From Candidatus Absconditicoccus praedator (lineage in GTDB: Bacteria > Patescibacteriota > Gracilibacteria > Absconditabacterales > Absconditicoccaceae), in contig NZ_CP054059.1 in assembly GCF_021057185.1 (NCBI RefSeq), positions 810,001 to 842,000 on the forward strand: 32,000 nucleotides of DNA. Direction: 5' to 3'. Below, in pieces: positions 8,369 to 32,000 of this stretch. The notes beneath the pieces are model-generated. The model saw only the letters and a program-made list of their open reading frames with translations. It did no database searches and was not told the DNA's origin. Position numbers and translations under genes: made by a program. Positions within the stretch are counted from its first letter, which is position 1. Each line of letters opens with the position of its first letter.

Positions 8369-11300
8369 ATGAAATTGTCAGCTATTTTTTTGTGGATTTT
8401 GATATTTGTGTTGTTATTTTTTGGGTGACAGGTTTTTTTCTGATATATTGCTAATCATCCATATTATATAGAAAAAATTACTGATTGATGAAATTGGTGA
8501 GTTTTGATATTTACATTTATAGCTTCTTTAATACCAGTTTTTTATTTATTTGCATCAAAAAAATTTAATTTTATAAAATTTTTGATATATATTATTTTAT
8601 GATTGTATTTTTTTGGATTGTTGTTATTATCTGTAAAGGAATGAATAGTTTGAAGTGGTTTGATAATGTTGTTTGTAAATGTTTTAATACTTTCTTTCCT
8701 AATACTGGCTTTCCTATTGTCAACTTATTCTTATTGAGAATACTTCAAAGAAAAAGTTTTGAAACTAAAAACATATAGTATTTATGACATATTTTTGTCT
8801 TTTGGTGTGGGTCTTAGCTGACTTTTGATTTTAATTTTTATTTTGATGAGTTTCAATCTTTTGTATCCTTTGGTGTCATATATTATTTTTATATGATGAC
8901 TAGTTTTAGCTTACTATCAAAAAGACAACTTAATTTTAGTTAAGAGTAAGTTTGAAGAAATATTACTTAGTTTAAGAGAATTTAAAAACAAATCAAAAAT
9001 AGTTTCTTATTTGGGTGTCTTTCTTCTGATAGTATCTATATTGTATTTTTATTTCTGATTTATGTTGTCTTTTATACCATATCCAACTGCTTGGGATGCA
9101 AATCATGCATATATGTTTAATCCAAAAGTTTGGGCAATGAATGCTTGATTTTATTGGTGATGAGATTGACCTTCTGCAAGTTTTCAGCTTTGGTATTCAT
9201 ATATAACATATTGGTTTTCACTTGCTTTACCTTTGTGATCAGTTCTTTGGATATCAGCTGATAGTATTGCTACAGTTACTAACTTTTTTAGTTGAGTTTT
9301 TGTGTTATTATTCTTTTTGGCTTTATCAAAAGAAGTTTTGAATTATTTTTCTTCAGATGAAACTACTGACAATGCTGATAGGTCTCTAATGGTTTTTTAT
9401 TTTGCTTGGCTTTTGATACTATTGTGGCTTACTAGTGGAATGTGAGCTTTCTTGGTTTTTGTTGACAATAAAACTGATATGTGAGTGTTGGCTATAATAA
9501 TACTTGCTATGTATAGTTGATTTGTTTGATTAAAGTCGGTAAAAGATGCAAACAAAAACAATGAATCAGTTTTGCAAAAATATACTCTTACCAAGTTTTG
9601 AATTTCGTGATTTTTATTTGCTATGGCAGTGATGGCTAAGCCTACAGCCTTTTTGGATGCTGTATGATTTGGTTTACTTTTGACCTGGATGTGGATATGA
9701 ATAATTGCTGTAATTTCAGTGTTTTTCATAATAATATGACTTCTCTCATTTGTAGAGTTTAGATGAATCAAATGATATATAACTCCTCAAACTGGTATTT
9801 TTAGTTTTATATTGTGAATTGTTTGATTTGCGGGTGGAACTTTTCTAAGTTTTATGAAAAAATCTATGAATTACTTTTTGCTTATGTTGGCTTGGTGATG
9901 AGTTTTCGTAGCTTCTTTGCTTTTGTTTAAATGAAGTTTTGTATTATTTGAATATCATCAAGACTGAGAAGAATTTAATATTATTGATTTTGCAGATGAT
10001 GTTTTCTTGTCTTACAATAGTTTTTCTTCTGAAGATGAAGAATCAAAAACTCAGGATAAAACAAAAAAATCAACTTTACTTGCCTCAACTCAACCTGTTG
10101 CCAATACAAATAGTTGTACATTGGATAATTATGATGAAGATGACTTGTATGAAAATGTAGAAAGTTATGATGGAGATACTCGTGGAGAAGATGTGGGAAG
10201 ATATGTTGGATACTGACACCATGATTTTGAAAATCCTTGGTGGGGTATGTTTTTCCCTAGATGAGATTATTGTCTTTGATTTAATGAGGATGCTAAAAAG
10301 GTTTGTTGAAATTTTGTTGCAATAGCACAAAATGATCAGTCTACAATAGAGAATATGATAGATCAAATTGAAGACGACTATCTTGTTGAACTTTTGGAGT
10401 GACAAGCTCAAGGTGAGAATAATACCGGTGATATCCAGCAGTATTATCAATCTTATGTGATGAGAATTAGTTCAGACAATCAAGATCAGGTAGTAAGTAT
10501 TCCTTACAACTACCTTGTGCCTTTCAATCTAACATTCAACTGGTCTTTGCAAAACCTAAGTAGCTATTATACAGATGTTTGATATATCTGGTTGATACTA
10601 AAGTTTATTATGATAGTTTGACTTATTTACTCTTTGATAGCAAGAGACAGGTTTTTGATATGATTTATATTAGTTTCCAGTCTCATTTGGAGTATATGGT
10701 TTTTTATATGATGATGAATACTTTGGTATTGAATAGGTTTAATTGTATGGACAATCTTATCATTTATTTTGATTTTTGATAAAATCACCAGGAATATCAA
10801 CTGGGATGATTATCCAACAAGGTTTTGATATCATACTTTAGTAGCTTTATTTTTGATTTTTGGGATTTTGTGAATTGTTTTCAATTTTATAAGAATATCA
10901 ACTCAATGAGGTTCTTGACCTTTTATGTGGTACAAGCAATCTAGTGGTATAAAGCAAACAATAGATGAACAGTTGCAACCACAGAATTCCATAAAAACTC
11001 CTTATGTCAAAGAAGATATATTTGATCTGCAGTTTGGTCATTACAATGAATTCATTGAAGCCTCAGATAGTAGAGAGGAATGAGAAGTAACTTTTATAGC
11101 AGGTACTTATGCAAGGTATTTTTTGGAAAATCAAAAGTATATAGAAACTGATCAGTTTTTGACTGATATGTGGGAGTTGTTCTCAGATAATGATATATGT
11201 AAATCTTATCTTAGGTTAAAAAACGAGGATATAAAGTACATTGCAATAGATCCCAATATATGAACAGTTGTTATGTGAGATGGAAATGTTAGTTTGTTCA

Positions 11301-11869
11301 ATAGATTTTTTGGAGAAATAGAAGATGATCAAATAGTGAATGATTGAGTTATGACTATGTTGCTTAATTTATCAAATAAATGATATATAGATCATATCTC
11401 ATCAAATAATATATGAGCTAAGTATGCTTTTGAGTTGTCTGATGAGGAGTTGAAACTGGCTGAATGAGTTGATGAAGATAATGTAGACTTAATCAGAGCA
11501 AAAATTTCTGTACCAAGATACTGGGAAGATAATATATGAGAGTATGTAAATGTGATAGTTGAATTGTTTGATTATAGGATCAGGAATAATCCCGAGTATG
11601 CGATTTCTGATATTGCAAGTATATTGTGAAAACAGGTAGATTCTCAAGAAGTAGCTAGTTTAGCAAATTCTATAATGGAATGAGCTCATTTTGGTATTGC
11701 AAGCATAGAAAATCTTGATTATGAAGAAAGAAATGTTTTGACAGAATATTTGTGATTGATAGAGCTAATGGAGACAAATCAGCATAATTATTCTCAAGCA
11801 ATTCATTGATTGGTAAATAGAAGTATTTCAGGCTCTTCTCAAATAATTACTCTTGGTGTAGAACATTAG
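8369..11869 (+). CDS. Very large polytopic integral membrane protein of unknown function (1166 aa); possibly GT-C-like, which is speculative
   Basis: Single table-25 ORF. It opens after TAA at 8354..8356, the first ATG is 8369, and it ends at TAG 11867..11869. I verified the frame at four internal points and against track ORF 10007..10216. It has a long block of hydrophobic helices (8369..~9950) and an acidic, Cys-containing soluble loop (~9950..10580). A second TM block spans ~10580..10900 and a soluble C-terminal domain of about 320 aa follows. Loop motifs such as YPTAWDANHAYMF and AVMAKPTAFLD are reminiscent of GT-C glycosyltransferase loops, but this is not a secure assignment. Confidence 0.8.
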
Positions 11870-13065: not shown

Positions 13066-16000
13066 ATGGTAGAAGATAGAGAAAATAGAGAACTTATAGA
13101 TGAAGAAACGCAACAAAGAAGACACCAAGAAACCAAAAATGCTGCAATAAAAGCAATATTTTATAGTTTTGAGGAATTTAGAGAAACTAGGGGATTTTCT
13201 GCAACAACTAGTATATGAAGTATGTTTAATCAATTTTTAGTTTTTTTGAAAGACAAAAACAAAGTAAGTATTATAGATAATCTAAAATCAGCACTTTGAA
13301 AGGAAGAATTAACTTTTGATGATATAAAAGATTTGTATCTGCCATGAAAATGGACTCTTGAACAGATTTTAAAAAGTAAGCTTGAAGAAAGATTTACCAA
13401 AGAATCTAAAAAGGCAATAGTAGATTCTTTTTTGGATCAATCAATTTTTTTAATAGAAAACTTGAAAGATACTAACTGAAATAATATATTTAAAAATTCT
13501 GATAAGTCGACTTTTGAAAAATATTGTTATAAAAACTTTGAAAATTTAACATCTTTTAAAAATGCTTTAAAGCAATTTCTAAACAGTGAAGATGTGAATC
13601 TTTCATTAGAAAATAAAAAATTGTTTTTGAAAAATCTTAATGTTTCAAATGAAGCAATTTTAAAAAAGTTTGGAGGATATGATACTACATTTGAAAATAT
13701 ACTTGAAAAGTCAATTTCTTCTCAAAGTAGAGATATGGTAGAGCTTGTTGAGTGATTGTTGCAGTTGGAAAGCACAGCATATATAGATCAAATAGTAGGA
13801 GACTTGGAAGATGTGTCATATCACTTGAGATATTGATATGATTTGAATATTTGAAAGGTATTTGATGGTACACCATTGCCAAAAAAAGAAAAATCATTTT
13901 TTTTAAATAAATCTTCACTTTTCCCATCTGGATTCAACATAAACAAAATTTTTGCAGACAAAGATAATAAAAAAATTATTTTGATGAACCTTATTGTTTT
14001 ATATAAAGAATACCAAAAAATAAATTCGGAACAATATGAGTCATTGAAACAATTGCTAGTTGAGTGAAAAAGCTTTAATGAACTTACACAAGATAATCAA
14101 AAAATTCTAATAGATCTTGTATTTCAAAATTCTATAGAAAATAAACTTGGATTAATTAAAGATTTGTATAATTTTGAAAGTGTTTCAGAAATGAGTCAAC
14201 ATGTTCAAGATTTTCTAAATCCTAAAAAACAAGATTTTTTTGTAAATATCTGATGAGAAACCAAAAAGCTTAGAATGTCAAAAAATTATTTTGTTACTTG
14301 AAATGGTTTTGAAAATCCTTTAGATATTAGTGACTGGAAACTTTGAATTGATTTTTCTATAAATAAAGAAGAAAGTGATGAAGAGTTTGTGGACTTAATA
14401 AGAAAAATTAATTGATGAATAGATGATAGATTGAGTAATGATAGTATTATTTATATTATTAATTTTCTTGCTTGAGTGGAAAAACTTAAGAGTGAGTGAT
14501 TTCCAGATGAAGTAATTGAAGAAGCAAATCAAATCTATTTAGAAAATGCAAGTTGAGTAGAAAAGATAAGAGAAAGATTTGAAAAGGATTTATCTTCTAT
14601 AAGATTTAAAAAAAATTTATGACAAAAAGTTTGATTTGATTCAAATTGATACTTTTCATTTGATGTAGATTATTTGAAACAACAAACTTGAGTAAGTGTG
14701 ATATCTAATGAATCTTGAATATTTTTTAAGGTTGATGAGTCAGATTGATATCTTAGTGAAGATGAATTTAGAAATGAATTTCCAGAAAAATATAAAATTC
14801 TTTCTTCTTTTGTAAGACTTCATAGTCAGCATAAAAGGCATTATAAGTGTTTGTTTGCATTATGATTTTGAAATTGAATAGATATTTGAGGTAAAAAGTT
14901 TTATTGATTTGATATTGTGGATTTAATAATTAGAAGAGAGCAGCTGTCACAACACTTTAAAAATAATCTTTTGGATAATTTTGCAGAAATTTTGTCAGAA
15001 AGATGAATTGATCCTACTATAATCACTAATACAAATGATGTTTTCTTGTATGATAAAAATTTTTGGGAAAGTTTAGAGAGAAATCTTTATGGTTCTTCTG
15101 ATGATATAGCATGAGGTTTTGACGAGGAAAATTGAATTGCAGAGTCTGAACAGGAAATAGAGTTTGCACAAAGGTATGAAAATTTTAAAAAAATGTGGAA
15201 AGATTTTGAGTGAGATGAGTCTGCTGAGTTTGGAGAATGAGCAATGCTTATGATAAGAGTTTGAGAATCCAATTTTAAGTGATGATGAAATAACTGGGGT
15301 GTCTTAAAGATAAATTCAATTAGTAGACCACAATCAGAATATGATAAATGAAGTATTGAAATAAGATTGTGGTGCTCGGAAACCTGAGAAAACTATGATA
15401 TACAAACAGAGTTTAATGATGAGCACTTAAGAAATATATTAAGACAAGATCCTGTATATGATTCTGTAATAAAAATGTCTGATGATTATTCTGTTAGAAA
15501 AAGAGAGTTTCTTGACTATGTGAAAAATCTTTCTGTGAAATCTGATTATAAGAGTTTGAAATCTACCAAAGATAAATGGATAAATATACAAGAGAAATCT
15601 TCTAAATTTGTAAATTCAACTACATGAGAAGAGATAAAATATGTATGAAAAGGTCATTCTGAATTTGATGAAAACGGAGAGCAAAAACCTTATGGTCTTT
15701 TATATAAAGTTGAATTTAATGATAATTTTGTAGTTGTTTCTGATAGAAACTGATGATCTAAATTTAATATGACATATCCAGAATTTTATGTTTTTTGTTC
15801 TGACAAGTCTTTGAATCCTTATACACAGGAACAGGCAGAAACACTTAATAAAAAATATTGAGATTCTCCAAGAGATAAATGATGATGGAATTTTTATTCA
15901 GTTGGGGCTGCTATTATGTCCTTCAAGTCTATAAAGGATAATTTTTCTCAAAAATGGAAAAGAACAGAAGAATTGGCATCTTCAAAACTATATTCTCAAC

Positions 16001-17772
16001 TTCTTGATAATAAATTATCACATACATTTTTAAAATGACAAATTTTTGATGAGCTTAGGAATGAGGCTTTTTCAGAGTTTGATAGTAAGATTTGGAGCAT
16101 AATAAGTGGTTATAAAGATGGTTTGAGTCGTGATTGAGGTGTTCATGACTCAAAAGTGGTTTGAGTTATAGAAAGCCAAGTTTTAAAAAAGAAAAATATT
16201 TATAAATCAAACCCATTAAAGGCTGCTGCATATTTTCTTTATGCTGTAGAAAACGGTGGATGACCTTATTTTAGAAAATTAAAGAAATATGCTTGACAAT
16301 GAGTTTGGGTGGAGTCAATATTATGACCAGAGCATTTAGATATGTTTAAGACTCAATATAAAGCTCTTCTAGATGAAGCATCAAACAATCCTAGTAATTG
16401 AGAGATACTAAATAAACTTGCAAGAGCAGAGATAGAATATGTAGTTGATGTTACAAAGGAGAAAACATATAAATTTGGTTCTAATTATGGTTGAAAACTT
16501 GAGTCTGCAATGAACAATAATTTATTTAGTGTGGGTAAATCAAAGGAAATATATGAAGACCTGTCTAAAAAATCTGATTTTTCAACGGTGTTGGATGAAT
16601 ATTTATGACTTATGAAAGGTAACATGCCAGCCAAGCAAGTATGATGACTGAGAGCATTGTCAGAAAAAATTGATGATGAGAGTCAGTACTGAAAATGGTT
16701 TATGGCAATGCTTCTGCCAATATTATCTTGACAATCAACTTATTGATGGGATGCAAATTTAAAGTCAGAGTATCTAAAAATTGCTTGAACAAATGCTTTT
16801 CCTATGTGAATGTATATAAATGAAATGGACTGACCAGGTAAGGTTGTTAAGATTTTGGATCTTGTTTGTGAAAAAAGAAATATTACTTGAAAAGATAAAT
16901 TTTCTGAGTTTGTATGATGGGATGAGAGTCATCTTTATTGAGAATGATTTTGAAGTAATTATGAAACTATGATAAATAAAATAATATCTTGGTGGGATAA
17001 GCACTGACAGGAAGTGATACCTCTTCTAAATCTTGAAAACATATCTCAAGAGGATTCTATTATAAAAGATATTTCTAGACTCTCAAATAGAGAATCTCCA
17101 ACTGAAGAAGATAAAGCAAAAAAGAGCATACTAGAAGATTATAAAGAAAAAATAATAGATAAATGAAAAGATGCATCTTTTGATCAAATGGATCCTAATG
17201 AAGCAGTTCAATATAAAAAAGCTATATTTAACATGTCTCCAAAGGTTGTGGAAAAAACAATGCTTTCATTTAGAGGATGACAATTTCAAAATCTTTTGGG
17301 AAGATGATTGTGGAAAATATTAAACTGAAAACTTAGTTCTCTACTATCTCAGGATGATTCAGAAACTTTTGAGTTTGTGTTTTCAAAATACATTACTTGG
17401 TTTGCAGATAAGCATCATCCACAAAAATATGAGTTGATTCATATGTTTTTAAAAGAAAATAAAGAAAACCTTGAAGATGATATTAAGACAATGTTGGTGT
17501 CTACATTTGGTTGATATTACAATTTGCATGCAGATGTAGAGGAGTGACTTTCTAAATTTGCAAAATATTTTTCTAAAAATATTAATAGGATGGATAATGC
17601 TAAAAGAAAGTCATTTGTCAAAAAAACAATATGAGCAGATGCTTATGAAGAGTATGTTTCATGAGATTGAAGAAAAAAGGCAAAAGAAATATACTCAAGA
17701 GCAGAAACTCAAAAGAGAAAAATGTGATGACAGGTAGATGAGGATTTGCTGCTAGAACAAGACTTAATTTAG
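13066..17772 (+). CDS. Giant soluble orphan protein (1568 aa); no family recognised
   Basis: Single table-25 ORF. In-frame TAA at 13021..13023, first ATG at 13066, TAG at 17770..17772. Length is divisible by 3, and I verified the frame at 13876, 14401, 15298, 16501 and 17401. It is K/E/D/N/F-rich. I could find no transmembrane segment, signal peptide, Walker motif or other catalytic signature. Confidence 0.8.
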
Positions 17773-18967: not shown

Positions 18968-19777
18968 TTATAATTTACTGAATAAATATGCTGTGATTAT
19001 TCATAAAATAAACATTAGTAAGTTTATTATGGTTGGTTGTTCTATAGCTTCATTTGGAAATATTGAATAAAGACTTCATAGGATTAGTCATACAATAAAA
19101 GTATATGTAATATCTTTATGGTTTTCAAATAGATATTTTATCAATCTCACTATTGTAAGAATTCATAATATAGCTCAAACTCATATAATTAAGATTCATT
19201 CTAATATAAAGTTTTCTACTATATGTATGATATTATAATACTCTCATATAATAATCAACAACATAGATCCAGAAAATCATGGTATAATCATCGCTGAAGC
19301 AGCTATCATTCAGCTTATTAGAAGTTTTATTCAATATAAAAAATCAATATTTATTGTGTTTTGATTTTCAACTGTTTCGGTATTAAGTCAAATATTTAAA
19401 AATAACACTATTAATATTGCAAAAACCAGTAAGAAAAAATTTTGTAACGAAACTTTTTTATTTGAGATTTGCTTAATTAAAAATGGAACAGATCATAATA
19501 CAAGTCAAAAAAATATTAAACTTACTTGTGTTTCATATTGTTCTAGTAAAAATCATAATACTTTTGCAAAAATAAATATTCATATAATAGCTCCTATAAA
19601 TATATTAAATAAAAATAAAAAATCTTTTTTTGAAAAAGTTTTTAAAAAATTCCATATTGAATTTATAAGTTTTTCATAGATTCAAAAAATAACAGCTAGA
19701 GTTCATCATGATAGTCATGGTACTATATTTGCTATTCAAATGAAAAATCATTTTATAAAAGTTTTTATTGCATTCAT
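18968..19777 (-). CDS. DUF368 family membrane protein (PopT-like candidate polyprenyl-phosphate translocase), 269 aa
   Basis: ATG at 19777, TAA at 18968..18970. It carries the duplicated signature of DUF368: GFFIGIANIVPGLSGGTLAVIFGIY in the first half and MIIPGFSGSMLLIIIGEY in the second. The rest of the protein is hydrophobic throughout. Confidence 0.85.
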
Positions 19778-19896
19778 AAAATATATTGTTAAACTTAAAT
19801 AAGTAACTTTATAAAAATAAAAATAAAAAAATCAACAATATAAATAGTATTTTATTATAAAAGTCAACTATTTGCAGTAAATACATTTTTATAATT

Positions 19897-19924
19897 TTGA
19901 CAAAAAATTTTTTTTTTGTAAAAT
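19897..19924 (+). promoter_or_regulatory. Sigma-70-type promoter candidate for the sortase cluster (TTGACA-N16-TAAAAT)
   Basis: ttgaca at 19897..19902, taaaat at 19919..19924, 44 nt upstream of the ATG at 19968. Confidence 0.55.
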
Positions 19925-19967
19925 ATATTTATTGAACTATTTAAATAAAAACAAAAATCACAATAAA

Positions 19968-20963
19968 ATGAATCAAGTAAAACTTCAAGATTTATGAAGA
20001 AAAAAAACATCAAAAATTAAAGAAAGTAATTATAACTCAAAAAAAACCAAGACTACTTATTCAAGATGAAAATCAAAATTTAACTTTTTTTCAATATTTG
20101 GTGAACTTTTTAGGTTTTCTATTGTTTTGTCTGTAGTTACAATATGATGAATAATCTTTGTAAACATGAATCTTTTTTATTATACCTTTAAGGAAACTTT
20201 TTTTTCTCATGAAATTTATGCTGGTGATTCTTCTTTTGCTACTGTAGAAGACTTTTCAAGTTTTAATCAACCAGAAAAATCTGAAAACAATTCATCTAAT
20301 ATTCAAGATCAAGATAAAGTACAGGATGATAGTTTTAGTGGGATAGAAGATGAAAAAATCCGCTGAATGGTAGAAGATTGACTTTCACAGGTAGATTCTG
20401 AAGATAATATAGAAAACAGAAAAAATATGAAAGATATTTTAAGGACAAATTTTAATGACTATTCTTTTGATTTTAATCTAAATCCGCCTGATAATAGAAT
20501 AATAATTCCTTCTATATGAGTAGATGCTCCTATTGTAGATGTTGATTATGTAAATCCTCAAAAAATGGCAGAAGCTAATTTTGAAGAAGAATTATATGAT
20601 GGTGTAGTGAAATATCCTTTTACACCTTCTCCTGAAGATGATTGAAATATGTTTGTTTTTTGACATACAAGTTATTATCGGTGGAGAGATAATGATTATT
20701 GAGAAGTTTTCGCAAGAATACCAAGATTGGATGATGGTGATAAAATAAAAGTCCTTTGGTGATGAAATCTTTATAAGTATGAAGTTGTTACAAAGGCAAT
20801 AAGACGGCCAGCTGAAGTATGAGATTTTTATGAAGAGCATAGAGATTGAAATTATATAACATTGATGTGATGTTATCCTATTTGATCAAATGCTCAAAGA
20901 ATCTTGGTTATGGCAAAACAATTAGAAGAAGTAGAAAGTGATGAAATTGTCTTTAAAAATTAA
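19968..20963 (+). CDS. Sortase-family transpeptidase with a long basic N-terminus and a TM anchor (331 aa)
   Basis: ATG at 19968, TAA at 20961..20963, in frame with track ORF 20166..20366. TM: FRFSIVLSVVTIGGIIFV. Sortase blocks: RIIIPSIGVDAPIVDV, catalytic His in NMFVFGHTSYY, catalytic Cys in YITLMGCYP (TLxTC-like), and the downstream Arg in AQRILVMA. Confidence 0.8.
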
Positions 20964-20971
20964 AAATAAAA

Positions 20972-22966
20972 ATGAAGTATTTGTTGCTTATATGCTTATT
21001 ATTAGTTTCTTTTTCAGTTAGTGCAAATCAGTCTGATAATATAGATAAGGTGGATTGACTTACTGGAGAAGTATCAGATATGAATGTAGATGATCTAATA
21101 GAAGAAGAATCTTTTTGAGATACTACAAATCCAATAGAAAGCTTTAGGGAGTCTCAATTTGAAGCTATAGCCCCTTTATTGCAATCAAATTGAAATTGAG
21201 CAAGATTGGATACTCAAAAAGCTCAGGATAGATTAAATGAGCTAAATTCTAGTTTTGAGCATGTTATATCTGATATCGAGTCTGTGCAAGCAAGAAAAGA
21301 TAGAATTCAGTCAAGATATGAAGATATAAGAAATTGAATTATAAATATAATTAGAACTTCAAGAGAAACTAAGCATAATATAAAACAAAGAATTTCGGCG
21401 GTAAGAGAACTAACTTATAGGATAAATAAGCTAGAAAAAAGAGTTGATTTTTTAAGGAATGAAATAGGTCAAACTAAAGAAGAATTGGCTTCAAACATAT
21501 CAGTTTTGTATAGAATTAATAATGATTATTACTGATCTTCTGGGCAAATTGATAGTATAAGACTCTTAGCAAACACTGATAATATAGCATCTAGTCTTTC
21601 ATCTGAGGATGTTATGAAGTCTATGATGTATCATACAGATGATTTGATGGAGTTGTTGTGAGATAGAAAAAAAGCCTATGAAGAAACGGTTGGTAGATAT
21701 AATGATTACAGAACAAGATATAGAAAAGAAGTTCAAAATTATAAATGAAAAATAGAAGAATATGAGCAACAAAAAGAAAACCTTAAAAAGATAGTAGATT
21801 TTCTACAAGAAGATAGAGAGTATACACAAGAAGAATTTCAAGATCTTGTAGATCAAAAGGAAGCAGTGAAAAATAGAATTTCTCTAATAAAAAATTATGA
21901 ATCATCTATGAGTAATGAAGCCTTGTCAGTATCTGGTGTTGATTTATCAAAACTTTATGAAAACTCTGAAAGACCAGATGAATGAAATTTTTTCTCTTGG
22001 CCTGTGTTGCCAGTAGAAAGATTTTCAGCTTTTTTTGAAGATGATGATTATAAGGAAGTTCATTGAACAGATCATAATGCAATAGATGTGGTTGTTGAAC
22101 AATGAACAGAAGTTTATGCACCTGCAAACTGAGTTGTTTATAAAGTAGTTAACCAGGATGGTCCGTGATTGAATTGGTTTGTAATGGCCCATAAGCATTG
22201 ATATATAACTGTATATTTACATATGCAAGATATATTTGTGCAAAAATGAGATTATGTTGATAGATGAGAGTTGATATGACTAACAGGTTGAACTCCATGA
22301 ACAAGGTGAGCCTGACTTCTAAGTAGTTGACCTCATCTGCATTTTGAAGTTATACAAGATGGTGAGTATATAGATCCTTTGGAAGTTTTGGATCTAAGTG
22401 TTGTTAAAGATAGAAGAGCACTTCCTAAGGAATACCAAGTAAAGTATATGGAGGATAGGCTTTCAAGAAGTTATGATATGTCAGGTATTAGTTATGCATC
22501 TTGAGACACTGTGGAAGAAAGGAGAAAAGATTATCTTGCAAGAAATGCAATATGACCTTACTCTGATGTTGAGCTTTGGGAGGCAGCATCTCAATGAACA
22601 GATGTTGATATAGATTTTGGTATATGTATAGCTGCTGCAGAAAGTGGTCTTTGAAGAAATATGACTACAGAATGGAATGTATGAAATGTATGAAATAATG
22701 ATAGGTGAGATAGAATTGGTTATGATACTCCAGCTCAATGAGCAAGAATGATATATCTAACACTGGTGAATAGTTTTTTATGACATCATAATACTATAGA
22801 CAAGCTGTCTAGATGGTGAAATAAAGATTGATCTATATATGCTAGTAGTCCTAAAAATTGGCAAAAAAATGTTTCAAGATGTTTATCAAGTATTAAATGA
22901 TACTGGGTGCCAGAGGATTACCCTTTTAGGAAAGCAACCCAAATGGATGATATTGCTGCAAGATAA
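20972..22966 (+). CDS. Secreted coiled-coil M23 metallopeptidase fused to a C-terminal lysozyme-superfamily (FlgJ/glucosaminidase-like) domain (664 aa)
   Basis: ATG at 20972, 8 nt after the sortase stop; TAA at 22964..22966. Signal peptide: MKYLLLICLLLVSFSVSA. A heptad-rich region of about 250 aa (EnvC-like) follows. M23 core: HGTDHNAIDVVVEQGTEVYAPANGVV...WFVMAHKHGYITVYLHMQDI...[35 protein letters not shown]. The C-terminal block FGICIAAAESGLGRNMTTEWNVGNVGNN (22619..) resembles the catalytic-Glu motif of muramidase/glucosaminidase domains. That second domain assignment is tentative. Confidence 0.82.
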
Positions 22967-23035: not shown

Positions 23036-25498
23036 ATGGTAGATAAAGTTGTATTGTGGGCAGAACAACTTGGAAAAAAATTGGCACAATTTTTTGACTT
23101 TTCTTCAGTAAAAAAAGATGAATATCTAGTATATAAGATAAAACCTTTTAAAGAGGCAGAAAATAGTATTACATACTGGGAGTGATTTGTTGATAATTTT
23201 GTGTGACTAAAATGAAAAATATATTTTGTGATAGAATGAAACAAAAAGTCTATTCAAAATTATGCTATAGTACCACCAGAACTGCAAGATTTGTTTGAAA
23301 GTAGTTTTTATTCTTACTTTGCAGATTCTGAAAGTTTTCAAGTAGATAAGAAAATCCATATAGATAATATTAGGTATATAAATTTTGGTTTTGAAAAATT
23401 TTATACAAGACAGGATTTTACAAAAGATTGAGTTTACTTAGACCCTTTGAAAAGTATATATTGAGTTTTTTATAATATTAAAGAAGAAGACTGAAAACTT
23501 AATTTAATTTTTGGATATGATTTAAGTGTAAAAGATTGACTTTGTTGAAAAATTAAAAAATTATTTTTAAAAGTATGATTTTTGAATCAACCAGAAGAGC
23601 AAGACGAATCAAAAAACAAAGAAAAAATATGATTTTTTATTTGATTAAATCATAACTTTAAAAACTCAGAGCATAAATCACTGAAAAATCTTACTTCTGT
23701 ACTGGATTCATTAGGAGAATGATGAAAATCAAAAATAACATCAAGGAAGAAAGTATTTAAGCTTGATATAGAACAAATTTCTAATTTTTTTCATTTGCCT
23801 TCTAGTAATTATGTTATTAAAAATTTAGACTATTTAGAATTTAGAAAACTTCCTTTTCCGCCCAATGTACCAACTCTAAATAATACAGATAAAAACAATA
23901 TCACATTACTTTGATACACCGACTATAAAAATGAGTCTTCAAAGTTTGGTATTAAAAATGAAGACAAGTTTAAACATATGTATGTGATTTGAAAAACTTG
24001 AATGTGAAAATCTACACTTCTTTCAAATATGATTAGAAGTGATTTTGTTAGTAATAAGTGAACCGCAGTGATAGATCCACACTGAGATTTAGTGGAAACT
24101 TTATTGCAGTATGTACCTTCTTGGAGAAGTAATAATGTTGTACTATTTGATGTTACTGACTATGAGTATCCTATAGGTTTTAATATACTTCAATATCAAA
24201 CAGAAGAAGAAAAAAATTTAGTTGTCAGTGGTATAGTTAGTACATTCAAAAAATTATATTGAGATAGTTGGTGACCTAGACTTGAATATATATTAAGAAA
24301 TGTTATTTTGTCTTTGGTGGAGTATCCAAATGCTACACTTTTGCACTTGATAAGGATTTTGAAAGATAAAAATTTTCAAGAAGAAGTGTTGGAGTATGTA
24401 AATGATCCAATAGTTCTAAAGTTTTGGAGAGAAGAATTTGATAAATGGCAAGATAAATTTAAGGATGAAGCTATAGCTCCAATAGTTAACAAAGTTTGAC
24501 AGTTCTTATCTTCTCCTATAATAAGAAATATTTTTGGTCAACCTCAAACATCCTTGAATTTTAGAAAAATAATGGATGAATGAAAAATACTGCTTATAAA
24601 TCTTAGTAAATGAAAAATATGAGAAGATAATGCAAACATGATTGGTTCTTTTATAGTTACGAAGTTTCAAATTGATTCAATGTCTCGTGCTGATCTTGCT
24701 TTTGAAGATAGAAATGATTTTTATTTGTATATAGATGAGTTTCAAAATTTTGCTACTGAAAGTTTTGAAAGTATTCTTTCAGAAGCAAGGAAGTATAAAC
24801 TTTCTTTGGTTGTAGCAAATCAATATATTTCTCAAATAGATGAAAAGATAAAAAATGCTATATTTGGTAATGTAGGTACTATAATTAGCTTTTGACTTGG
24901 TTATGATGATAGTAAAATAATATCAGACCAGTTTAAAAATATTATAACTCCTCAAGAAATTATTTCATTACCTAAGTTTAAGGCCTATGCAAAGCTTGCA
25001 ATTGATTGAGTTACATATGATCCTTTTAGTATGGAAACATTCCCTCTTCCTAAGCCACAACAGTGAGAAGATACAAAACAAAAAATAATAAAACAATCAA
25101 GACAAAGATATTGAAAAGAAAAAGAAAAACTTGAAGCATATATTAAACAGTGGTCTGATAAATCTTTTTCTAAAACAGAAAAGGCAGTAGAAAAAGCAAA
25201 GAAAATGTCCTCATCACAAAATAATAAAGAAAACAAACCTACAAAATCAAATAATGATGAAAATGTTTGAATAGAGCTTTGACAGTGGTTTGATGGTATA
25301 GTAAAACTAAAATATAATTATTGAGTATTTGTGATAGTTTGAGAAAATGAGTGATTGCTTCATAAAAAAAAGATATCTGTACCAGACTGAGTAAGGTGGA
25401 AAGACTTGTATCAGATTTGAGATCCTATAAAAGTAAAAGCAGAAGATTATAAAGAAGTGGATTGAGAGCAAAAGATAGTTTGGACACAACTTGATTAA
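23036..25498 (+). CDS. VirD4/TraG/TraD-like (FtsK-HerA superfamily) P-loop NTPase with a C-terminal S1 OB-fold domain; no TM segment (820 aa)
   Basis: ATG at 23036, TAA at 25496..25498, in frame with track ORFs 24308..24499 and 24638..24895. Walker A: VIGKTGMGKSTLL, in which all three Gly are TGA (23990, 23999, 24005). Next come AVIDPHGDL and Walker B FYLYIDEFQNF. The coupling-protein C-terminal pattern is ILSEARKYKLSLVVANQYISQID...IFGNVGTIISFGLG. The C-terminal 76 aa match S1: GQWFDGIVKLKYNYGVFVIVGENEGLLHKKKISVP...YQIGDPIKVKAEDYKEVDGEQKIVWT. Confidence 0.82.
23990..24016 (+). other. Walker A / P-loop coding segment (G-KT-G-M-G-KST) with all three glycines encoded by TGA
   Basis: Codons are tga aaa act tga atg tga aaa tct aca. 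Frame checked: (23990-23036) is divisible by 3. Confidence 0.85.
25268..25495 (+). other. S1-like RNA/ssDNA-binding OB-fold domain at the C-terminus of the ATPase
   Basis: Residues 745-820 of the 23036..25498 product, with the motif spacing G-x-V-x-G-x-V...YG-x-FV...EGLLH...GD-x-I-x-VK typical of S1 domains. Confidence 0.65.
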
Positions 25499-25559: not shown

Positions 25560-27035
25560 ATGCAAGAGTTTTTAAAAAGACAAAAGAAACTAGTATTATA
25601 TATTTCTTTTTTTATGTTTTTTTTTATTGTTTTTTTGATTTCTTTTTGGTATTACAAAGAAAATTATATTCAATTGACAACTAGTTCAATATTTTCAAGC
25701 TACTATTATGATGTAAAGTGAAGCTTATTAGAAATTGATTGAAAAAAATTTTCTGATATAAATAAGAACCAATTCAACCATGATGAATTTTATGATTTTT
25801 TTCAAGAATGGTGACTTGATACAAATAAATTTGATAGATTTTTCGCAAATATCAAGCTATTAAAAAAGGAATATGAGTCTGCTGAGTCAATTCTACCAGA
25901 GCTTTTGTGGGAAGATTTTTTTAATTTATGAAATATTGTTTTTTTGGAATCTTATGAGAAATTAATTGAAAATGATAACAAAGTTAGTGATTTTTATAAA
26001 ATACATGATTCATTTGATCAAGCGATAAGATTTTATAATCAGTCAGCTCAAATCTTATGAGATCCAACTGCTAGATGAGCAGAAAAGATTATAGAAAATA
26101 GAGTAAGTGTATATAATTTTAGGTTTTTGTTGTGAATAAAGATATGTGCAGAAATATTTTCTATGGCATTGGAAAGAATAGACTCTCTAATAGATAGAGT
26201 TGATAATATACTACAGCAGTTTATTAAACAAACTGAAAAAATAGAAGATCGGAAAGATGAAATTACTGATAATACTTTGAAAGAATGTTTGAATGATTAC
26301 TATGATTCATTGATAATTTCTTATGAAAATGTGCTTGGCATAAGAAGTTTGTTGTTGGAGTATGAAGAGTGAGCATTATCAAGGTTGGAAAAATGAATAG
26401 AAAATCCATATATGTGTGTAAGCAACTCAAAAGACTATTATGAAAGGCTTTCATCTGCTTTTACTCAAATAGAGGACTCCTTAGACTCTTACTCTGAAAT
26501 GAATTGACTTTTATTAGAGATTCTTGAGGAAGAGGATAAAGATACATTAAGAAATTTTTGTGAATCTTCTGATGAGTATTCAGAATACACTCAAGATGTT
26601 AATCAAGATTTGAATGAGTGACTTTGAGAGTTGGATGATATGCTTAATCCTGAAGATCAACAGCCTGTTCCACAACCAGAAGAACAAGAATGAGATCCAT
26701 TTTTTGAGTATGATGAAGAGTGAGATATGTTTGAGCCGGATTGATTTGATGAAGATGGTTTCCCTTGAGCTTGAGAACCATATCATGAAGAAATTCCAGA
26801 AGATGAACAAGATGAGTTAAGAGATATGATAAGAGAAAATGCAGAAAGATGGATTGAAGAAATGTTATACCTTAGGTGAGAGGAATGATACAATCCTTCA
26901 GATTATTTGGACCAGTTTTTTGGAGAATTTTATGGTTGAGAAGAGTGATTTGGTTGATACGAGCTTGATATTAGGGAGGGTTGAGGTTTACAAGATTTTT
27001 ATCAGGATGATTGATTTGCTCCAGATGAGTTTTAA
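25560..27035 (+). CDS. Membrane-anchored hypothetical protein with a helical middle region and an extremely acidic, aromatic/Gly-rich C-terminal tail (491 aa)
   Basis: ATG at 25560, TAA at 27033..27035, in frame with track ORF 26163..26372. TM: LVLYISFFMFFFIVFLISFWYY. Tail: ...EEQEGDPFFEYDEEGDMFEPDGFDEDGFPGAGEPYHEEIPEDEQDE...YLDQFFGEFYGGEEGFGGYELDIREGGGLQDFYQDDGFAPDEF. No family recognised. Confidence 0.72.
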
Positions 27036-31086: not shown

Positions 31087-31126
31087 TTTGTTGGTATGAA
31101 ATACATTTATAAATAAAAACAAAAAA

Positions 31127-32000
31127 ATGAGATATGTATTTATAATAATATTCGTATTTGTTTTTTGGGGTTGATTGGTTAATGCAGAATGGGTGCATAA
31201 GTGAAATGTATGAAGTAATGGTAGATGTGGTGCTTGAGAATTGGTTCAAGTATATTGATGACCATCATCTTGAACTAGATCTCACGAGCGAGGTGATGGT
31301 ACTACTATATGATGGAATGGTACTAGATATAGGCAGATAAATTGACCATGAAATACAAGTGCATCATGTTTAGAGTGGCAACCAGATACAAGTACAAATG
31401 ATTTTGATGTTACTCTTGACTGAGTAGACTGAACAAGTTCTGAAAATTGGGTCTTAGCAAATGAGCTTACTGTAGAAATTTCTTATGATGAAGATTCTGT
31501 TTGTTGACCTGCTTGATGTAATTCAATTGATATTAGCTGGGAATTTCATAACAGTGATGGTTCTGGTTCTACAACAATAACTTCAACAAGTCATAGTTTT
31601 AGTGTTGATTTGACTGATTTATGAGGTGCAAATGAGCAGGAATTTGAATTGTCAATTGATAATATTGACACTAATGCTACTTCTAATCATAGTCAGAATG
31701 TAAGGTATGACTGGCGAGTATTTGCAAATGAGCCAGTAACTCCACATTTTTCTAATGACTTTTATGATACAAGAGTTGGTAATGATAGTGATAATTTTAG
31801 GTGACGTATAAGATTAAGAGATGAACATGGAAATTATGTAGTACCAGTTCAGAGAATAAATAGAGAAGTAAGAGTAAATTTTGGGTACGATAATCATGTG
31901 TATTTACAACAATATAAAAAAGATTGGGAAGATGACTTGAGTTGAGGAGATAGTTGAATAAGATACCAAAGAACTGCTGATTCAAGCTATAGTAAATTTG
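31127..32000 (+). CDS. Secreted hypothetical protein, N-terminal 291 codons; continues beyond the window
   Basis: From the ATG at 31127 the frame stays open (no TAA/TAG) to the window edge. Signal peptide: MRYVFIIIFVFVFWGGLVNA. A Gly-rich, TGA-dense stretch follows, then beta-rich sequence (ISWEFHNSDGSGSTTITSTSHSFSVDL). The standard-code track ORF 31158..31340 is in a different frame. Confidence 0.7.

What the first reader, a model, noticed from the sequence alone, without database searches (positions are those of the whole stretch)
23036..25498. A soluble VirD4/TraG-like coupling-protein ATPase fused to an S1 nucleic-acid-binding domain
The central region has Walker A (GKTGMGKST), DPHGD, Walker B (YIDEFQNF) and the ...RKYKLSLVVANQYISQ...GN.GT.I.F pattern that I associate with type IV coupling proteins (the TraG/TraD C-terminal module). 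Unlike canonical T4CPs, it has no N-terminal TM helices; instead it has an unassigned N-terminal domain of about 320 aa. It ends in a well-formed S1 OB-fold (25268..25495). An S1 domain on a DNA-translocase-type ATPase suggests direct single-stranded nucleic-acid handling, such as substrate recruitment or uptake of DNA or RNA. I am not aware of a described T4CP-S1 fusion, but I cannot search to confirm novelty.
Basis: partly seen in the sequence, partly recalled or inferred. Interest (0 to 1): 0.65.

Follow-up and report, generated by a model that had tools for sequence, protein, structure and literature searches.

The report
Soluble T4SS-type ATPase with S1 tail
A gene of a tiny bacterium that reads UGA as glycine encodes a motor protein of the kind that feeds DNA into conjugation machines, but it has no membrane anchor and carries an RNA/single-strand-binding S1 domain on a flexible tail; the design is real and is kept across its whole lineage, so it is an undescribed variant of a known family, not a one-off.

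Summary
Under genetic code 25, 23036..25498 (+) is one 820-aa ORF. All 38 in-frame stops are TGA, and they fall on conserved glycines. Pfam calls DUF87/HerA, TrwB_AAD_bind, TraG-D_C and S1, all above their cut-offs. No TM helix is predicted. The AF2 model (pLDDT 90) matches TrwB best.

The "unassigned" N-domain is homologous to a separately encoded, TM-anchored partner protein. Its equivalent in relatives is annotated DUF8128. That partner abuts the ATPase gene in most other Patescibacteria and in Bacillus plasmids. The N-domain's fold weakly resembles the VirB4 N-terminal domain.

The S1 tail is not unique. All 117 closest homologues have it, and so do 18 of the 150 best representatives. Other lineages carry a treble-clef zinc finger in the same position. 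Plasmid relatives sit in the T4CP slot of monoderm T4SS loci. This gene and its chromosomal relatives stand alone among housekeeping genes.

Best reading: a vertically inherited, anchor-less coupling-protein-type hexameric motor whose tethered S1 domains bind single-stranded nucleic acid directly, in place of relaxosome recognition. Whether it still works with a T4SS, and in which direction, is not shown. It is a new variant of a known kind, of moderate interest.

The parts
23036..25498 (+). Whole gene: 820-aa ORF readable only with code 25 (38 in-frame TGA = Gly); stop TAA at 25496-25498
   Evidence: identical protein P0001 is in the public collection, on a 1.13-Mb contig
23036..23095 (+). 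Conserved N-terminal amphipathic helix (aa 2-19; family consensus MLKxAExLGxxxA). It sits where relatives have a TM helix.
   Evidence: model helix H2-19; consensus; TM helix in 32 of 39 detached partners but in only a few S1-type members
23117..23779 (+). N-domain (aa 28-248): alpha/beta domain homologous to the detached TM-anchored partner (DUF8128-type); VirB4-NTD-like fold
   Evidence: hhalign 96%, E=4e-9; fold search puts VirB4/TrwK at ranks 1-5 and 8, prob 0.97-1.0, TMq ~0.4; DUF8128 precomputed on the N-regions of relatives P0140 and P0196; no direct Pfam hit on this sequence
23783..23872 (+). Connector motif NFFHLP...YLEFRKLPFPPNVP (aa 250-279). It corresponds to the conserved C-terminal end of the detached partner (...EELA..HFP...PP.NLP).
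   Evidence: invariant columns N250-H253, Y266, P275 and others; partner sequences
23900..25063 (+). T4CP-type ATPase core (aa 289-676)
   Evidence: Pfam DUF87, TrwB_AAD_bind, TraG-D_C; TrwB TMt 0.62-0.69, Cagbeta 0.56, DotL 0.55, HerA 0.52; 45-51% identity across Patescibacteria classes
23990..24016 (+). Walker A GKTGMGKST (three of its Gly are TGA codons)
24203..24535 (+). All-alpha insertion between Walker A and Walker B (aa ~390-500), equivalent to the T4CP all-alpha domain
   Evidence: model helices H390-500; Pfam TrwB_AAD_bind spans aa 310-603
24719..24751 (+). Walker B FYLYIDEFQNF (D567, E568 invariant)
24788..24835 (+). RKYKLSLVVANQYISQ: the TraG-D_C signature (R585, K586, N595, Q596 invariant), aligned to TrwB GRKAGLRVVAGLQSTSQ
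25064..25273 (+). Three-helix stalk (aa 677-728) plus a disordered low-complexity linker (aa 729-746). In homologues the stretch aligned to query aa 716-748 is 19-318 aa long.
   Evidence: model pLDDT <50 at aa 728-743; linker lengths
25274..25486 (+). S1 (OB-fold) domain, aa 747-817, with motifs GIVKLKYNYGVFV and EGLLHKKK
   Evidence: Pfam S1 25.6 bits in the whole protein and 30.8 bits alone; profile against PDB hits bS1 at E=3.7e-22; invariant K757, L758, N761, F765, L774-K777 in 117 of 117

Best explanation
The gene encodes a chromosomal, vertically inherited member of the monoderm-type type IV coupling protein (T4CP; VirD4/TraG/TrwB) family, in a derived architecture.

Shown:
(a) The ATPase core has intact Walker A, Walker B and sensor motifs and a TrwB-like fold.
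(b) The N-terminal domain is the fused equivalent of a partner protein that most relatives encode as a separate, TM-anchored gene immediately upstream. Here the TM helix is missing.
(c) A flexible linker tethers a canonical S1 domain to the C-terminus.

Inferred mechanism:
- Like TrwB, the protein forms a hexameric ring that uses ATP to move single-stranded nucleic acid.
- Its six tethered S1 domains act as the substrate receptor and capture ssDNA or RNA directly. In classical T4CPs, by contrast, the C-terminal extension recognises relaxosome or adaptor proteins.
- Because it has no anchor of its own, it would dock peripherally to a membrane partner, perhaps through the conserved N-terminal amphipathic helix and the VirB4-NTD-like domain. 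The most plausible partner is the dispersed Patescibacteria T4SS (VirB4/VirB3/VirB6-like).
- The likely role is relaxase-independent transfer of nucleic acid between the epibiont and its host cell. I favour import weakly, by analogy with CedD.
For: Identity:
- Pfam T4CP families are above cut-off.
- TrwB is the best fold match: TMt 0.62-0.69 at rmsd ~5 A. Cagbeta and DotL follow.
- Catalytic residues are invariant in 117 homologues.
- Plasmid relatives lie in the T4CP position. In Embleya the order is PrgI/VirB3, VirB4-like ATPase, homologue, replication-relaxation, NlpC/P60. In B. subtilis plasmids the order is partner homologue, DUF87 ATPase, replication-relaxation, conjugal-transfer protein, VirB4-like ATPase.

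Fusion origin of the N-domain.

The tail as a nucleic-acid receptor:
- The S1 domain keeps the conserved positions seen in bS1 (Y-G-x-F-V on strand 2, G-L-L-H on strand 3).
- It is under selection while the linker is free to vary.
- Other lineages put a different small module, a treble-clef zinc finger (PF23477), at the same place.
- Distant relatives carry more generic S1 domains (Pfam 26-79 bits), some with the TM anchor retained.
- In most Patescibacteria the operon begins with a Sigma70_r4 + HARE-HTH DNA-binding protein.

Background:
- Only 109 relaxases were found, in 103 Patescibacteria genomes, against 5,713 T4CP homologues in 2,918 genomes (PMC12102498).
- Two related JAEDAM01 genomes are scored VirB4-positive.
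- CedD, a VirD4-like ATPase, is required for DNA import in Sulfolobales, and some of its orthologues lack a TM domain (PMC11823120).
- That T4CP C-terminal extensions recruit substrates (TraD-TraM, DotL adaptors) is established knowledge of mine, echoed by the Pfam family name.
Against: - No T4SS gene lies in the 32-kb window or within 10 kb of the three close homologues examined. No neighbour at all is conserved among the S1-type loci.
- In the wider phylum only 148 of 5,713 T4CP homologues lie near virB4. The Southlakia t4cp was not essential for epibiotic growth although the T4SS genes were, and the authors raise exaptation.
- The synteny (SecDF, AlaRS, FtsB-like, TsaD, GroESL) and the 45-51% identity across classes point to a housekeeping role.
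- S1 domains are best known from RNA metabolism, so the substrate may be RNA inside the cell.
- Hexamer formation, membrane docking, substrate and direction were not tested.
- The similarity of the N-domain to VirB4-NTD is weak (TMq ~0.4).
Confidence: 0.5

Rival explanations
1. Exapted cytoplasmic motor. The protein descends from a T4CP but no longer works with any secretion channel. It acts inside the cell as a ring translocase or remodeller on RNA or ssDNA, for example in RNA turnover, repair or chromosome handling, with S1 as its substrate grip.
For: It is a stand-alone gene among housekeeping genes in every S1-type locus. Synteny across the phylum is core-genome type and conservation is high. 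There is no TM helix. S1 is typical of RNA-handling proteins such as bS1, PNPase, RNase R and Rrp5. The t4cp was non-essential for epibiosis in Southlakia, and the authors suggest exaptation. The operon partner in other classes is a DNA-binding Sigma70_r4/HARE-HTH protein, not a channel component.
Against: In most relatives the partner domain is membrane-anchored (32 of 39 detached partners, and about half of the fused forms, including S1-bearing P0133 and P0140). This points to action at the membrane. The nearest relatives with informative context are bona fide T4SS loci. No nuclease, helicase or RNA-degradosome partner is linked to it.
Confidence: 0.3
2. It is really a VirB4-type assembly/energising ATPase (N-terminal domain plus C-terminal ATPase), not a coupling protein.
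For: The two-domain layout parallels VirB4. VirB4/TrwK chains give the best E-values for the full model (3.7e-14) and take ranks 1-5 and 8 for the N-domain alone.
Against: The global fit to VirB4 is poor (TMt ~0.3, rmsd 15-24 A), whereas TrwB gives 0.62-0.69. The Pfam hits are the T4CP families. No VirB4 family (CagE_TrbE_VirB, AAA_10) is listed for this protein at E<=0.1. In plasmid loci the homologue coexists with a separate VirB4-like ATPase. Patescibacteria VirB4 forms its own clade with T4SS genes nearby, which is not the context seen here.
Confidence: 0.08
3. It is a component of an anti-phage defence system (HerA-like, or the mad8 ATPase of MADS).
For: The best PADLOC hit is mad8 at 53.6 bits, with weaker HerA hits. 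Related ATPases occur in Bacillus phages and in phrog_5156.
Against: No other defence gene is adjacent in the window or in homologue loci. The gene sits in core-genome synteny and appears vertically inherited rather than in a variable island. The mad8/HerA similarity covers only the shared P-loop core.
Confidence: 0.05
4. It is not a gene: a decayed ORF full of stop codons.
For: Under the standard bacterial code the frame has 38 stops.
Against: All 38 are TGA. They coincide with conserved Gly positions, including Walker A. The same holds for every gene in the window. The full-length protein is 45-62% identical to over a hundred homologues, and its model has pLDDT 90.
Confidence: 0.01

Closest known systems
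TrwB / VirD4 / TraG type IV coupling proteins (R388 TrwB, PDB 1E9R/1E9S; H. pylori Cagbeta; Legionella DotL)
   Same: The P-loop core with Walker A, Walker B and the RK...Q signature. An all-alpha insertion. Best fold match (TMt 0.62-0.69). Pfam TrwB_AAD_bind and TraG-D_C above cut-off. A C-terminal extension as a plausible substrate-receptor site.
   Different: No N-terminal transmembrane domain. A ~250-aa VirB4-NTD-like/DUF8128-type N-domain instead. A C-terminal S1 domain. No linked relaxase or T4SS genes. Sequence similarity to TrwB is marginal (E=0.03).
Bipartite or fused T4CPs of monoderm-type plasmid T4SS loci (B. subtilis ~25-kb plasmids: 'hypothetical' partner + 'DUF87 domain-containing protein'; Embleya/Streptomyces 812-aa 'type IV secretory system conjugative DNA transfer family protein')
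   Same: The closest relatives with an informative context: 26-38% identity over the core. The same partner/N-domain module (63 bits against the partner HMM in Bacillus; weak in Embleya).
   Different: They sit next to VirB4-like, PrgI/VirB3, replication-relaxation and cell-wall hydrolase genes. They have no S1 tail. They are plasmid-borne, not part of the core chromosome.
Pan-Patescibacteria orphan T4CP homologues (counted in PMC12102498)
   Same: The same core family at 45-51% identity. Mostly far from virB4. Possible exaptation has already been raised.
   Different: Most are split into a TM-anchored partner plus an ATPase, preceded by a Sigma70_r4/HARE-HTH gene, and often end in a treble-clef zinc finger rather than S1. 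The S1-tailed, anchor-less fused form of this window is specific to the code-25 lineage. The paper does not mention an S1 domain.
CedD (VirD4-like ATPase of the crenarchaeal Ced DNA-import system)
   Same: Best NCBIfam hit. A VirD4-like HerA/FtsK-superfamily ATPase. Some orthologues lack a TM domain. Needed for DNA import rather than export, so it is a functional precedent.
   Different: 38.5 bits against a cut-off of 600, so it is not an equivalog. CedD has no S1 domain or DUF8128-type N-domain as far as the paper describes. It is archaeal.
VirB4 / TrwK
   Same: N-domain plus ATPase layout. VirB4 chains take ranks 1-5 and 8 among structural hits to the N-domain.
   Different: Poor global superposition. 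No VirB4 Pfam family is listed at E<=0.1. It coexists with a separate VirB4 in plasmid loci.
HerA (DUF87) and FtsK/SpoIIIE translocases
   Same: The same ASCE P-loop superfamily. Pfam DUF87 at 40 bits. HerA TMt 0.52.
   Different: No evidence of a HAS-barrel N-domain and no NurA partner. FtsK_SpoIIIE scores below its cut-off (16.5 against 24), and there are no TM segments.

Membership tests
T4CP (VirD4/TraG/TrwB) | FtsK/HerA-superfamily nucleotide-binding domain with Walker A, Walker B and the conserved RK...Q segment (TraG-D_C) | tested here: met
   Motifs are present and invariant in 117 homologues. TraG-D_C scores 29.4 bits against a cut-off of 22. Aligned to the TrwB motifs.
T4CP (VirD4/TraG/TrwB) | All-alpha domain inserted in the NBD; overall TrwB-like fold | tested here: met
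   TrwB_AAD_bind scores 27.6 bits against a cut-off of 20.5. Helices at aa 390-500. TrwB TMt 0.62-0.69 at rmsd ~5 A.
T4CP (VirD4/TraG/TrwB) | N-terminal transmembrane anchor | tested here: not met
   The highest KD19 mean is 1.24, so no TM segment is predicted. 111 of 117 close homologues also lack one. Relatives place the TM on the detached or fused partner domain.
T4CP (VirD4/TraG/TrwB) | Genetic linkage to a T4SS (VirB4 and others) and/or a relaxase | tested here: not met
   None in the window, in three homologue loci, or shared among S1-type loci. Presence elsewhere in the genome cannot be tested from 32 kb. Two related JAEDAM01 genomes are VirB4-positive.
T4CP (VirD4/TraG/TrwB) | Hexameric ring with a central channel; DNA-dependent ATPase | not testable with these tools
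   Only a monomer model could be made. No multimer prediction or biochemistry was available.
S1 domain (PF00575, OB-fold) | Five-stranded barrel with the conserved G-x-V, Y/F-G-x-F-V and G-L-x-H segments | tested here: met
   Pfam scores 25.6 and 30.8 bits against a cut-off of 22. 23 of 23 family tails are called S1. The profile hits bS1 at E=3.7e-22. The model shows strands E751-760, 763-768, 771-776, 797-808 and 811-817 with helix 788-791.
DUF8128 (PF26449) / detached partner of Patescibacteria T4CP-like ATPases | Homology of the N-terminal ~250 aa to the partner family | tested here: met
   hhalign 96%, E=4e-9 over aa 28-192. The connector motif is shared. DUF8128 is precomputed on the partner-type N-regions of P0140 and P0196. 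There is no direct Pfam hit on this protein or on two partners in the tool's Pfam copy, so the link to PF26449 is indirect.
VirB4 | VirB4 N-terminal domain (CagE_TrbE_VirB) plus a VirB4-type C-terminal ATPase (AAA_10) | tested here: inconclusive
   VirB4 chains take ranks 1-5 and 8 for the N-domain fold, but weakly (TMq ~0.4, E 6e-4 to 4e-3). No VirB4 Pfam family is listed at E<=0.1. The core fits TrwB better than TrwK.
HerA | HAS-barrel N-domain and a NurA (or defence-effector) partner | tested here: not met
   The N-domain matches VirB4, not HerA. No NurA-like neighbour. Only the central DUF87 domain is shared.
FtsK/SpoIIIE | FtsK_SpoIIIE motor domain above cut-off, TM segments, gamma domain | tested here: not met
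   16.5 bits against a cut-off of 24, over the Walker A region only. No TM segment.
CedD (NF053655) | Equivalog score of at least 600 bits | tested here: not met
   38.5 bits.
MADS mad8 | Co-occurrence with the other mad genes | tested here: not met
   The mad8 HMM scores 53.6 bits over the core, but no methyltransferase or other defence genes lie nearby.

The most novel reading that the evidence does not exclude
Patescibacteria possess a phylum-wide, relaxase-independent nucleic-acid transfer pathway. Its motor is this DUF8128-plus-T4CP module. Its interchangeable C-terminal appendages (S1 in the code-25 lineage and some others, a treble-clef zinc finger in Parcubacteria-type lineages) are direct substrate receptors. 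Through this pathway the epibionts would pull host RNA or ssDNA in, or push their own out, via the T4SS. That would link the essential T4SS of these nucleotide-auxotrophic bacteria to nucleic-acid acquisition.
Probability: 0.2. Interest if true: 0.8.

Novelty: new variant of a known kind. Interest (0 to 1): 0.5.

Why it matters
Patescibacteria make up a large share of bacterial diversity. They cannot make nucleotides, and they depend on host cells. Their T4SS is essential for epibiotic growth, but its substrate is unknown. They encode thousands of "orphan" T4CP homologues whose role is an open question (PMC12102498).

This analysis shows three things about those orphans:
- They form a conserved two-part module: a DUF8128-type, VirB4-NTD-like partner plus a T4CP ATPase.
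- In most classes the module sits behind a Sigma70_r4/HARE-HTH gene.
- Lineages have hung different small modules (S1, zinc finger) on the motor's C-terminal tail.

That gives a concrete, testable hypothesis: the substrate is nucleic acid recognised directly, without a relaxase. The anchor-less S1 form in this window is the most derived version and a convenient soluble target for biochemistry. If instead the module has been exapted to an intracellular RNA or DNA task, it would be a clear case of a conjugation motor being domesticated into the core genome.

Tried and rejected
- **Window protein look-up.** The window's own protein is not on record in the look-up of encoding contigs, so I used homologues instead.
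- **Partner against the query.** A direct HMMER search of the partner HMM against the query found nothing. Only the profile-profile comparison detected the homology.
- **Pfam on the N-domain.** Pfam found nothing on the N-domain or on two detached partners. A profile of the N-domain against PDB sequences also found nothing.
- **Transcription signals.** The promoter/terminator scan was uninformative: 21 promoter-like sites against 18.9 expected, and no terminators.
- **Large neighbours.** The two large neighbouring ORFs (1166 aa and 1568 aa) and the downstream 491-aa ORF have no Pfam family, so none can be called VirB6-like or otherwise T4SS-related.
- **HARE-HTH gene.** I found no HARE-HTH-type gene in the window or in the S1-type loci.
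- **Supplementary tables.** The supplementary tables of PMC12102498 are truncated in the held copy. I could not check how SR1/JAEDAM01 homologues were classified.
- **Taxon names.** Distant S1-bearing relatives could not be assigned to taxa because most clusters carry no name.
- **Rejected readings.** Pseudogene; FtsK; CedD equivalog; defence ATPase; phage terminase (27 bits over Walker A only).
Full report
**1. Is the feature real?**

Under the standard bacterial code the frame 23036..25498 (+) is interrupted 38 times. Every one of those stops is TGA, and the only other stop is the terminal TAA. Read with code 25 (UGA=Gly), the region is a single 820-aa ORF. All other genes of the window likewise become long ORFs.

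The recoding is confirmed independently of ORF length. The TGA codons fall on alignment columns that are glycine in homologues, including the three glycines of the Walker A loop. Many database homologues show Trp at exactly these columns because their pipelines used code 4.

No TM helix is predicted, since the highest 19-residue hydropathy mean is 1.24. An identical protein (P0001) is in the public collection, on a 1.13-Mb contig.

**2. Domain assignment**

Pfam calls four families, all above their gathering cut-offs:
- DUF87/HerA central domain: 40.2 bits
- TraG-D_C: 29.4 bits
- TrwB_AAD_bind: 27.6 bits
- S1: aa 747-804, 25.6 bits

FtsK_SpoIIIE is below its cut-off. The best NCBIfam hit is CedD, at 38.5 bits against a cut-off of 600.

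An AlphaFold2 model built on 117 homologues is confident (mean pLDDT 89.9, pTM 0.79). It resolves an alpha/beta N-domain, a P-loop core with an all-helical insertion (aa ~390-500), a three-helix stalk, a disordered linker (aa 728-743) and a C-terminal five-strand barrel.

Against the PDB, the core superposes best on the coupling protein TrwB (target-normalised TM 0.62-0.69, rmsd ~5 A). Next come Cagbeta (0.56), DotL (0.55) and HerA (0.52).

The S1 assignment is solid. A profile of 23 diverse family tails hits ribosomal protein bS1 at E=3.7e-22, with the best stretch at residues 183-245 of chain 6bu8_Z. It also hits PNPase, Rrp5, RNase R and Tex. Pfam calls S1 in 23 of 23 tails once the code-4 Trp artefacts are corrected. 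The positions I know as the S1 ligand-binding face, the aromatic residues of strand 2 and the His of strand 3, are invariant or nearly so: Y760, Y762, F765 and H776.

**3. The N-terminal domain**

The N-domain alone gives no Pfam or PDB-sequence hit. A scan of GTDB species genomes showed that the ATPase core (query aa ~240-735) is 45-51% identical across essentially all Patescibacteria classes.

Module HMMs showed that in most of these genomes the ATPase ORF starts at the core. It is preceded by an abutting or overlapping same-strand ORF of 430-540 aa. That ORF has one N-terminal TM helix in 32 of 39 cases.

Profile-profile comparison links this partner to aa 28-192 of the query (hhalign 96%, E=4e-9). 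The partner's C-terminal motif (...EELA..HFP...PP.NLP) matches the query's invariant connector NFFHLP...PFPPNVP (aa 250-279). So the window protein is a fusion of the partner, minus its TM helix, with the ATPase. In relatives whose N-region is of the partner type, the precomputed annotation is Pfam DUF8128.

The N-domain modelled alone (pLDDT 72) returns VirB4/TrwK chains at ranks 1-5 and 8, and no other consistent match (prob 0.97-1.0, E 6e-4 to 4e-3, TMq ~0.4). The resemblance to the VirB4 N-terminal domain is weak but consistent. It also explains why VirB4 topped the E-value list for the whole model, with long alignments but a poor global fit.

**4. Coupling protein or VirB4?**

A tblastn of the core against annotated plasmids finds 726 records. 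The best are named 'type IV secretion system DNA-binding domain-containing', 'type IV secretory system conjugative DNA transfer family', 'DUF87 domain-containing' or 'TraM recognition domain-containing'. Two contexts are informative:
- In an Embleya plasmid, an 812-aa homologue lies between a VirB4-like ATPase (with PrgI/VirB3 upstream) and a replication-relaxation gene and an NlpC/P60 hydrolase.
- In B. subtilis ~25-kb plasmids, a 412-aa homologue is preceded by a 'hypothetical' protein that matches the Patescibacteria partner HMM (63 bits). It is followed by replication-relaxation, conjugal-transfer and VirB4-like genes.

The family therefore occupies the T4CP slot of monoderm-type T4SS loci and is distinct from VirB4. 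The partner-plus-ATPase pairing predates Patescibacteria. This fits the published conclusion that the Patescibacteria T4SS derives from the monoderm conjugation machinery (PMC12102498).

**5. Is the S1 fusion unusual?**

It is not unusual within its lineage. The large-database search returned at least 7,884 relatives, a capped figure. The 117 best (45-62% identity, 740-1,110 aa) come from Absconditabacteria/SR1, Gracilibacteria and 'Peribacteria'. All of them keep the S1 motif, with K757, L758, N761, F765 and L774-K777 invariant. In 114 of the 117 the motif lies at the expected place within the last 82 residues. In the GTDB scan, the tail and the full N-domain occur in all ten code-25 loci and in none of the other 73.

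The stretch aligned to query aa 716-748, which covers the linker, varies from 19 to 318 aa and is low-complexity.

An exhaustive search of 1.84 billion representatives gives 21,823 relatives at E<=1e-3 and 6,454 at E<=1e-30. Of the best 150, 18 carry an S1 tail. These include more distant forms with generic S1 domains (Pfam 26-79 bits). Two of them keep the N-terminal TM helix (P0133, P0140) and one is a short, core-only form (P0211).

One such protein is already named 'predicted RNA-binding protein with RPS1 domain' by JGI. Precomputed Pfam S1 calls exist for about a dozen of the 120 closest hits.

Other lineages carry a different small module at the same position. Three of four Parcubacteria-type tails with a CxxC...CxxC motif score 43-45 bits on the treble-clef zinc finger PF23477, and the fourth is below the cut-off. 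Another group has a conserved YKEQTARGGVKWFIGEDID motif with no Pfam family.

I found no paper that describes a T4CP-S1 architecture. The Patescibacteria T4SS survey counts 5,713 T4CP homologues but never uses the phrase 'S1 domain'.

**6. Genomic context**

The window is chromosomal and housekeeping or envelope-related. It encodes an IS1595 fragment, an M23/SLH peptidase, TsaD, a TPR protein, a cNMP-binding protein, SecD, TrpRS, MscS, a VCA0040-like protein, a sortase, a coiled-coil M23 peptidase, the target gene, an unknown TM/acidic protein, Lgt and a PKD/TSP3 protein. Two large ORFs have no Pfam hit. Nothing is recognisably VirB-like.

Three close homologues on long contigs are also stand-alone genes among ribosomal, aminoacyl-tRNA synthetase and DnaG genes. 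No neighbour is shared among the S1-type loci.

In the other classes the picture differs. In 41 loci a ~361-aa protein with Sigma70_r4 (56 bits), HARE-HTH (47 bits) and a winged helix lies immediately upstream of the partner. Further recurrent neighbours are SecD/SecF, AlaRS, a membrane glycosyltransferase-like protein and an FtsB-like protein. The TM-anchored S1 form P0140 follows the same HARE-HTH gene. This is core-genome synteny, not a mobile element or a T4SS island.

The published survey likewise found only 148 of 5,713 T4CP homologues near virB4 and only 109 relaxases in the phylum. It notes that the Southlakia t4cp was not essential for epibiotic growth and raises exaptation. Two JAEDAM01 'Gracilibacteria' genomes in its Table S1 are VirB4-positive.

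**7. Mechanism**

Shown:
- An intact T4CP-type ATPase core.
- A fused partner-type N-domain without the TM helix.
- A flexible linker.
- A conserved S1 domain.

Inferred:
- The protein forms a TrwB-like hexamer that translocates single-stranded nucleic acid.
- The six tethered S1 domains serve as direct substrate receptors. They would take the place of the relaxosome or adaptor recognition that classical T4CPs perform with their C-terminal extensions (established knowledge: TraD-TraM, DotL adaptors).

Three observations support the tail being a nucleic-acid-binding appendage: other lineages have a zinc finger at the same position, S1 recurs in distant members, and a DNA-binding HARE-HTH protein sits in the ancestral operon.

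Relatives are anchored to the membrane through the partner domain, so I expect action at the membrane. Here the TM helix is replaced by a conserved amphipathic helix (aa 2-19), so docking would be peripheral. The most plausible dock is the lineage's dispersed T4SS.

Direction is unknown. Import is attractive because these organisms lack nucleotide synthesis and because CedD sets a precedent.

The main rival is a fully exapted intracellular RNA or DNA motor. It is favoured by the housekeeping context and the Southlakia non-essentiality. I give the coupling or receptor model 0.5 and the exapted-motor model 0.3.

**8. Verdict**

The suggestion that this might be a singular fusion is not right. 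It is the standard architecture of a large, vertically inherited subfamily, partly auto-annotated but, in the literature I could search, undescribed.

It is a new variant of a known kind. Interest is moderate, at 0.5. The gene itself is one ordinary member of its family, but the family offers a concrete handle on the open question of what Patescibacteria T4CP homologues, and perhaps their essential T4SS, actually move.

Noticed in passing
window 1-32000: The whole window is coded with UGA=Gly (code 25), and every long gene needs it. Many public homologues of the target were translated with code 4 (Trp at UGA). This lowers their Pfam S1 scores and puts spurious Trp in conserved Gly columns.
   Followed up: yes
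L019-L083 (e.g. L020 3295-4398, 4493-6001, 5992-7782); L088 254-4380: In 41 loci from other Patescibacteria classes there is a conserved three-gene arrangement: a Sigma70_r4 + HARE-HTH + winged-helix protein (~361 aa), then a TM-anchored DUF8128-type partner, then the T4CP-like ATPase. It is absent from the window and from the S1-type loci.
   Followed up: partly
L025, L042, L075, L030, L057 (C-terminal 150-350 aa of the ATPase ORFs): Parcubacteria-type relatives end in a low-complexity linker plus a treble-clef zinc finger (PF23477, C..CG...F.PDG.RP.YC..C), where the window protein has S1. L066 and L081 have a different conserved motif (YKEQTARGGVKWFIGEDID) with no Pfam family.
   Followed up: partly
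L085 4995-7188 (B. subtilis plasmid CP121709.1); L086 4798-7236 (Embleya plasmid): Small Bacillus plasmids typed 'non-mobilizable' carry a partner homologue plus a DUF87 ATPase next to replication-relaxation, conjugal-transfer and VirB4-like genes. This looks like an unrecognised bipartite coupling protein of a monoderm T4SS. 544 of the 726 plasmids with a homologue are typed non-mobilizable.
   Followed up: partly
L019, L020, L025, L027, L036, L044, L050, L052, L057, L061, L071, L083; also L035, L062, L067: MAGs labelled Gammaproteobacteria, Planctomycetota or Bdellovibrionales carry the Patescibacteria-type gene pair at ~50% identity. They are either mislabelled bins or cases of horizontal transfer. 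L035 (Pirellulales, 672-kb contig), L062 and L067 have fused, TM-less forms.
   Followed up: no
target protein aa 246-717; phage records such as Bacillus phage G gp156: phrog_5156 (unknown function) matches the connector plus core at 234 bits, with ~345 profile positions ahead of the core. 54 phage records, mostly large Bacillus phages, encode relatives at 21-28% identity.
   Followed up: partly
window 19932-22966: Directly upstream of the target lie a sortase (19932-20963) and a 664-aa M23 peptidase with a long N-terminal coiled coil and an extra C-terminal domain (20972-22966). A second M23 peptidase with an SLH domain lies at 731-3061 (-). M23 peptidases also recur near relatives (L087, L088).
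   Followed up: no
window 8369-11869, 13066-17772, 25560-27035, 31088-31999: Large or unusual ORFs with no Pfam family: a 1166-aa polytopic membrane protein, a 1568-aa soluble protein, a 491-aa protein with an N-terminal TM helix and an extremely acidic C-terminus (immediately downstream of the target), and a partial secreted protein (304 aa within the window).
   Followed up: partly
window 1-510 (-): A truncated IS1595/ISXO2-like transposase ORF lies at the window edge.
   Followed up: no
window 18968-19867 and 19001-20000: GC drops to 0.195 around the only minus-strand gene of the central block, a VCA0040-like undecaprenyl-phosphate translocase family protein.
   Followed up: no
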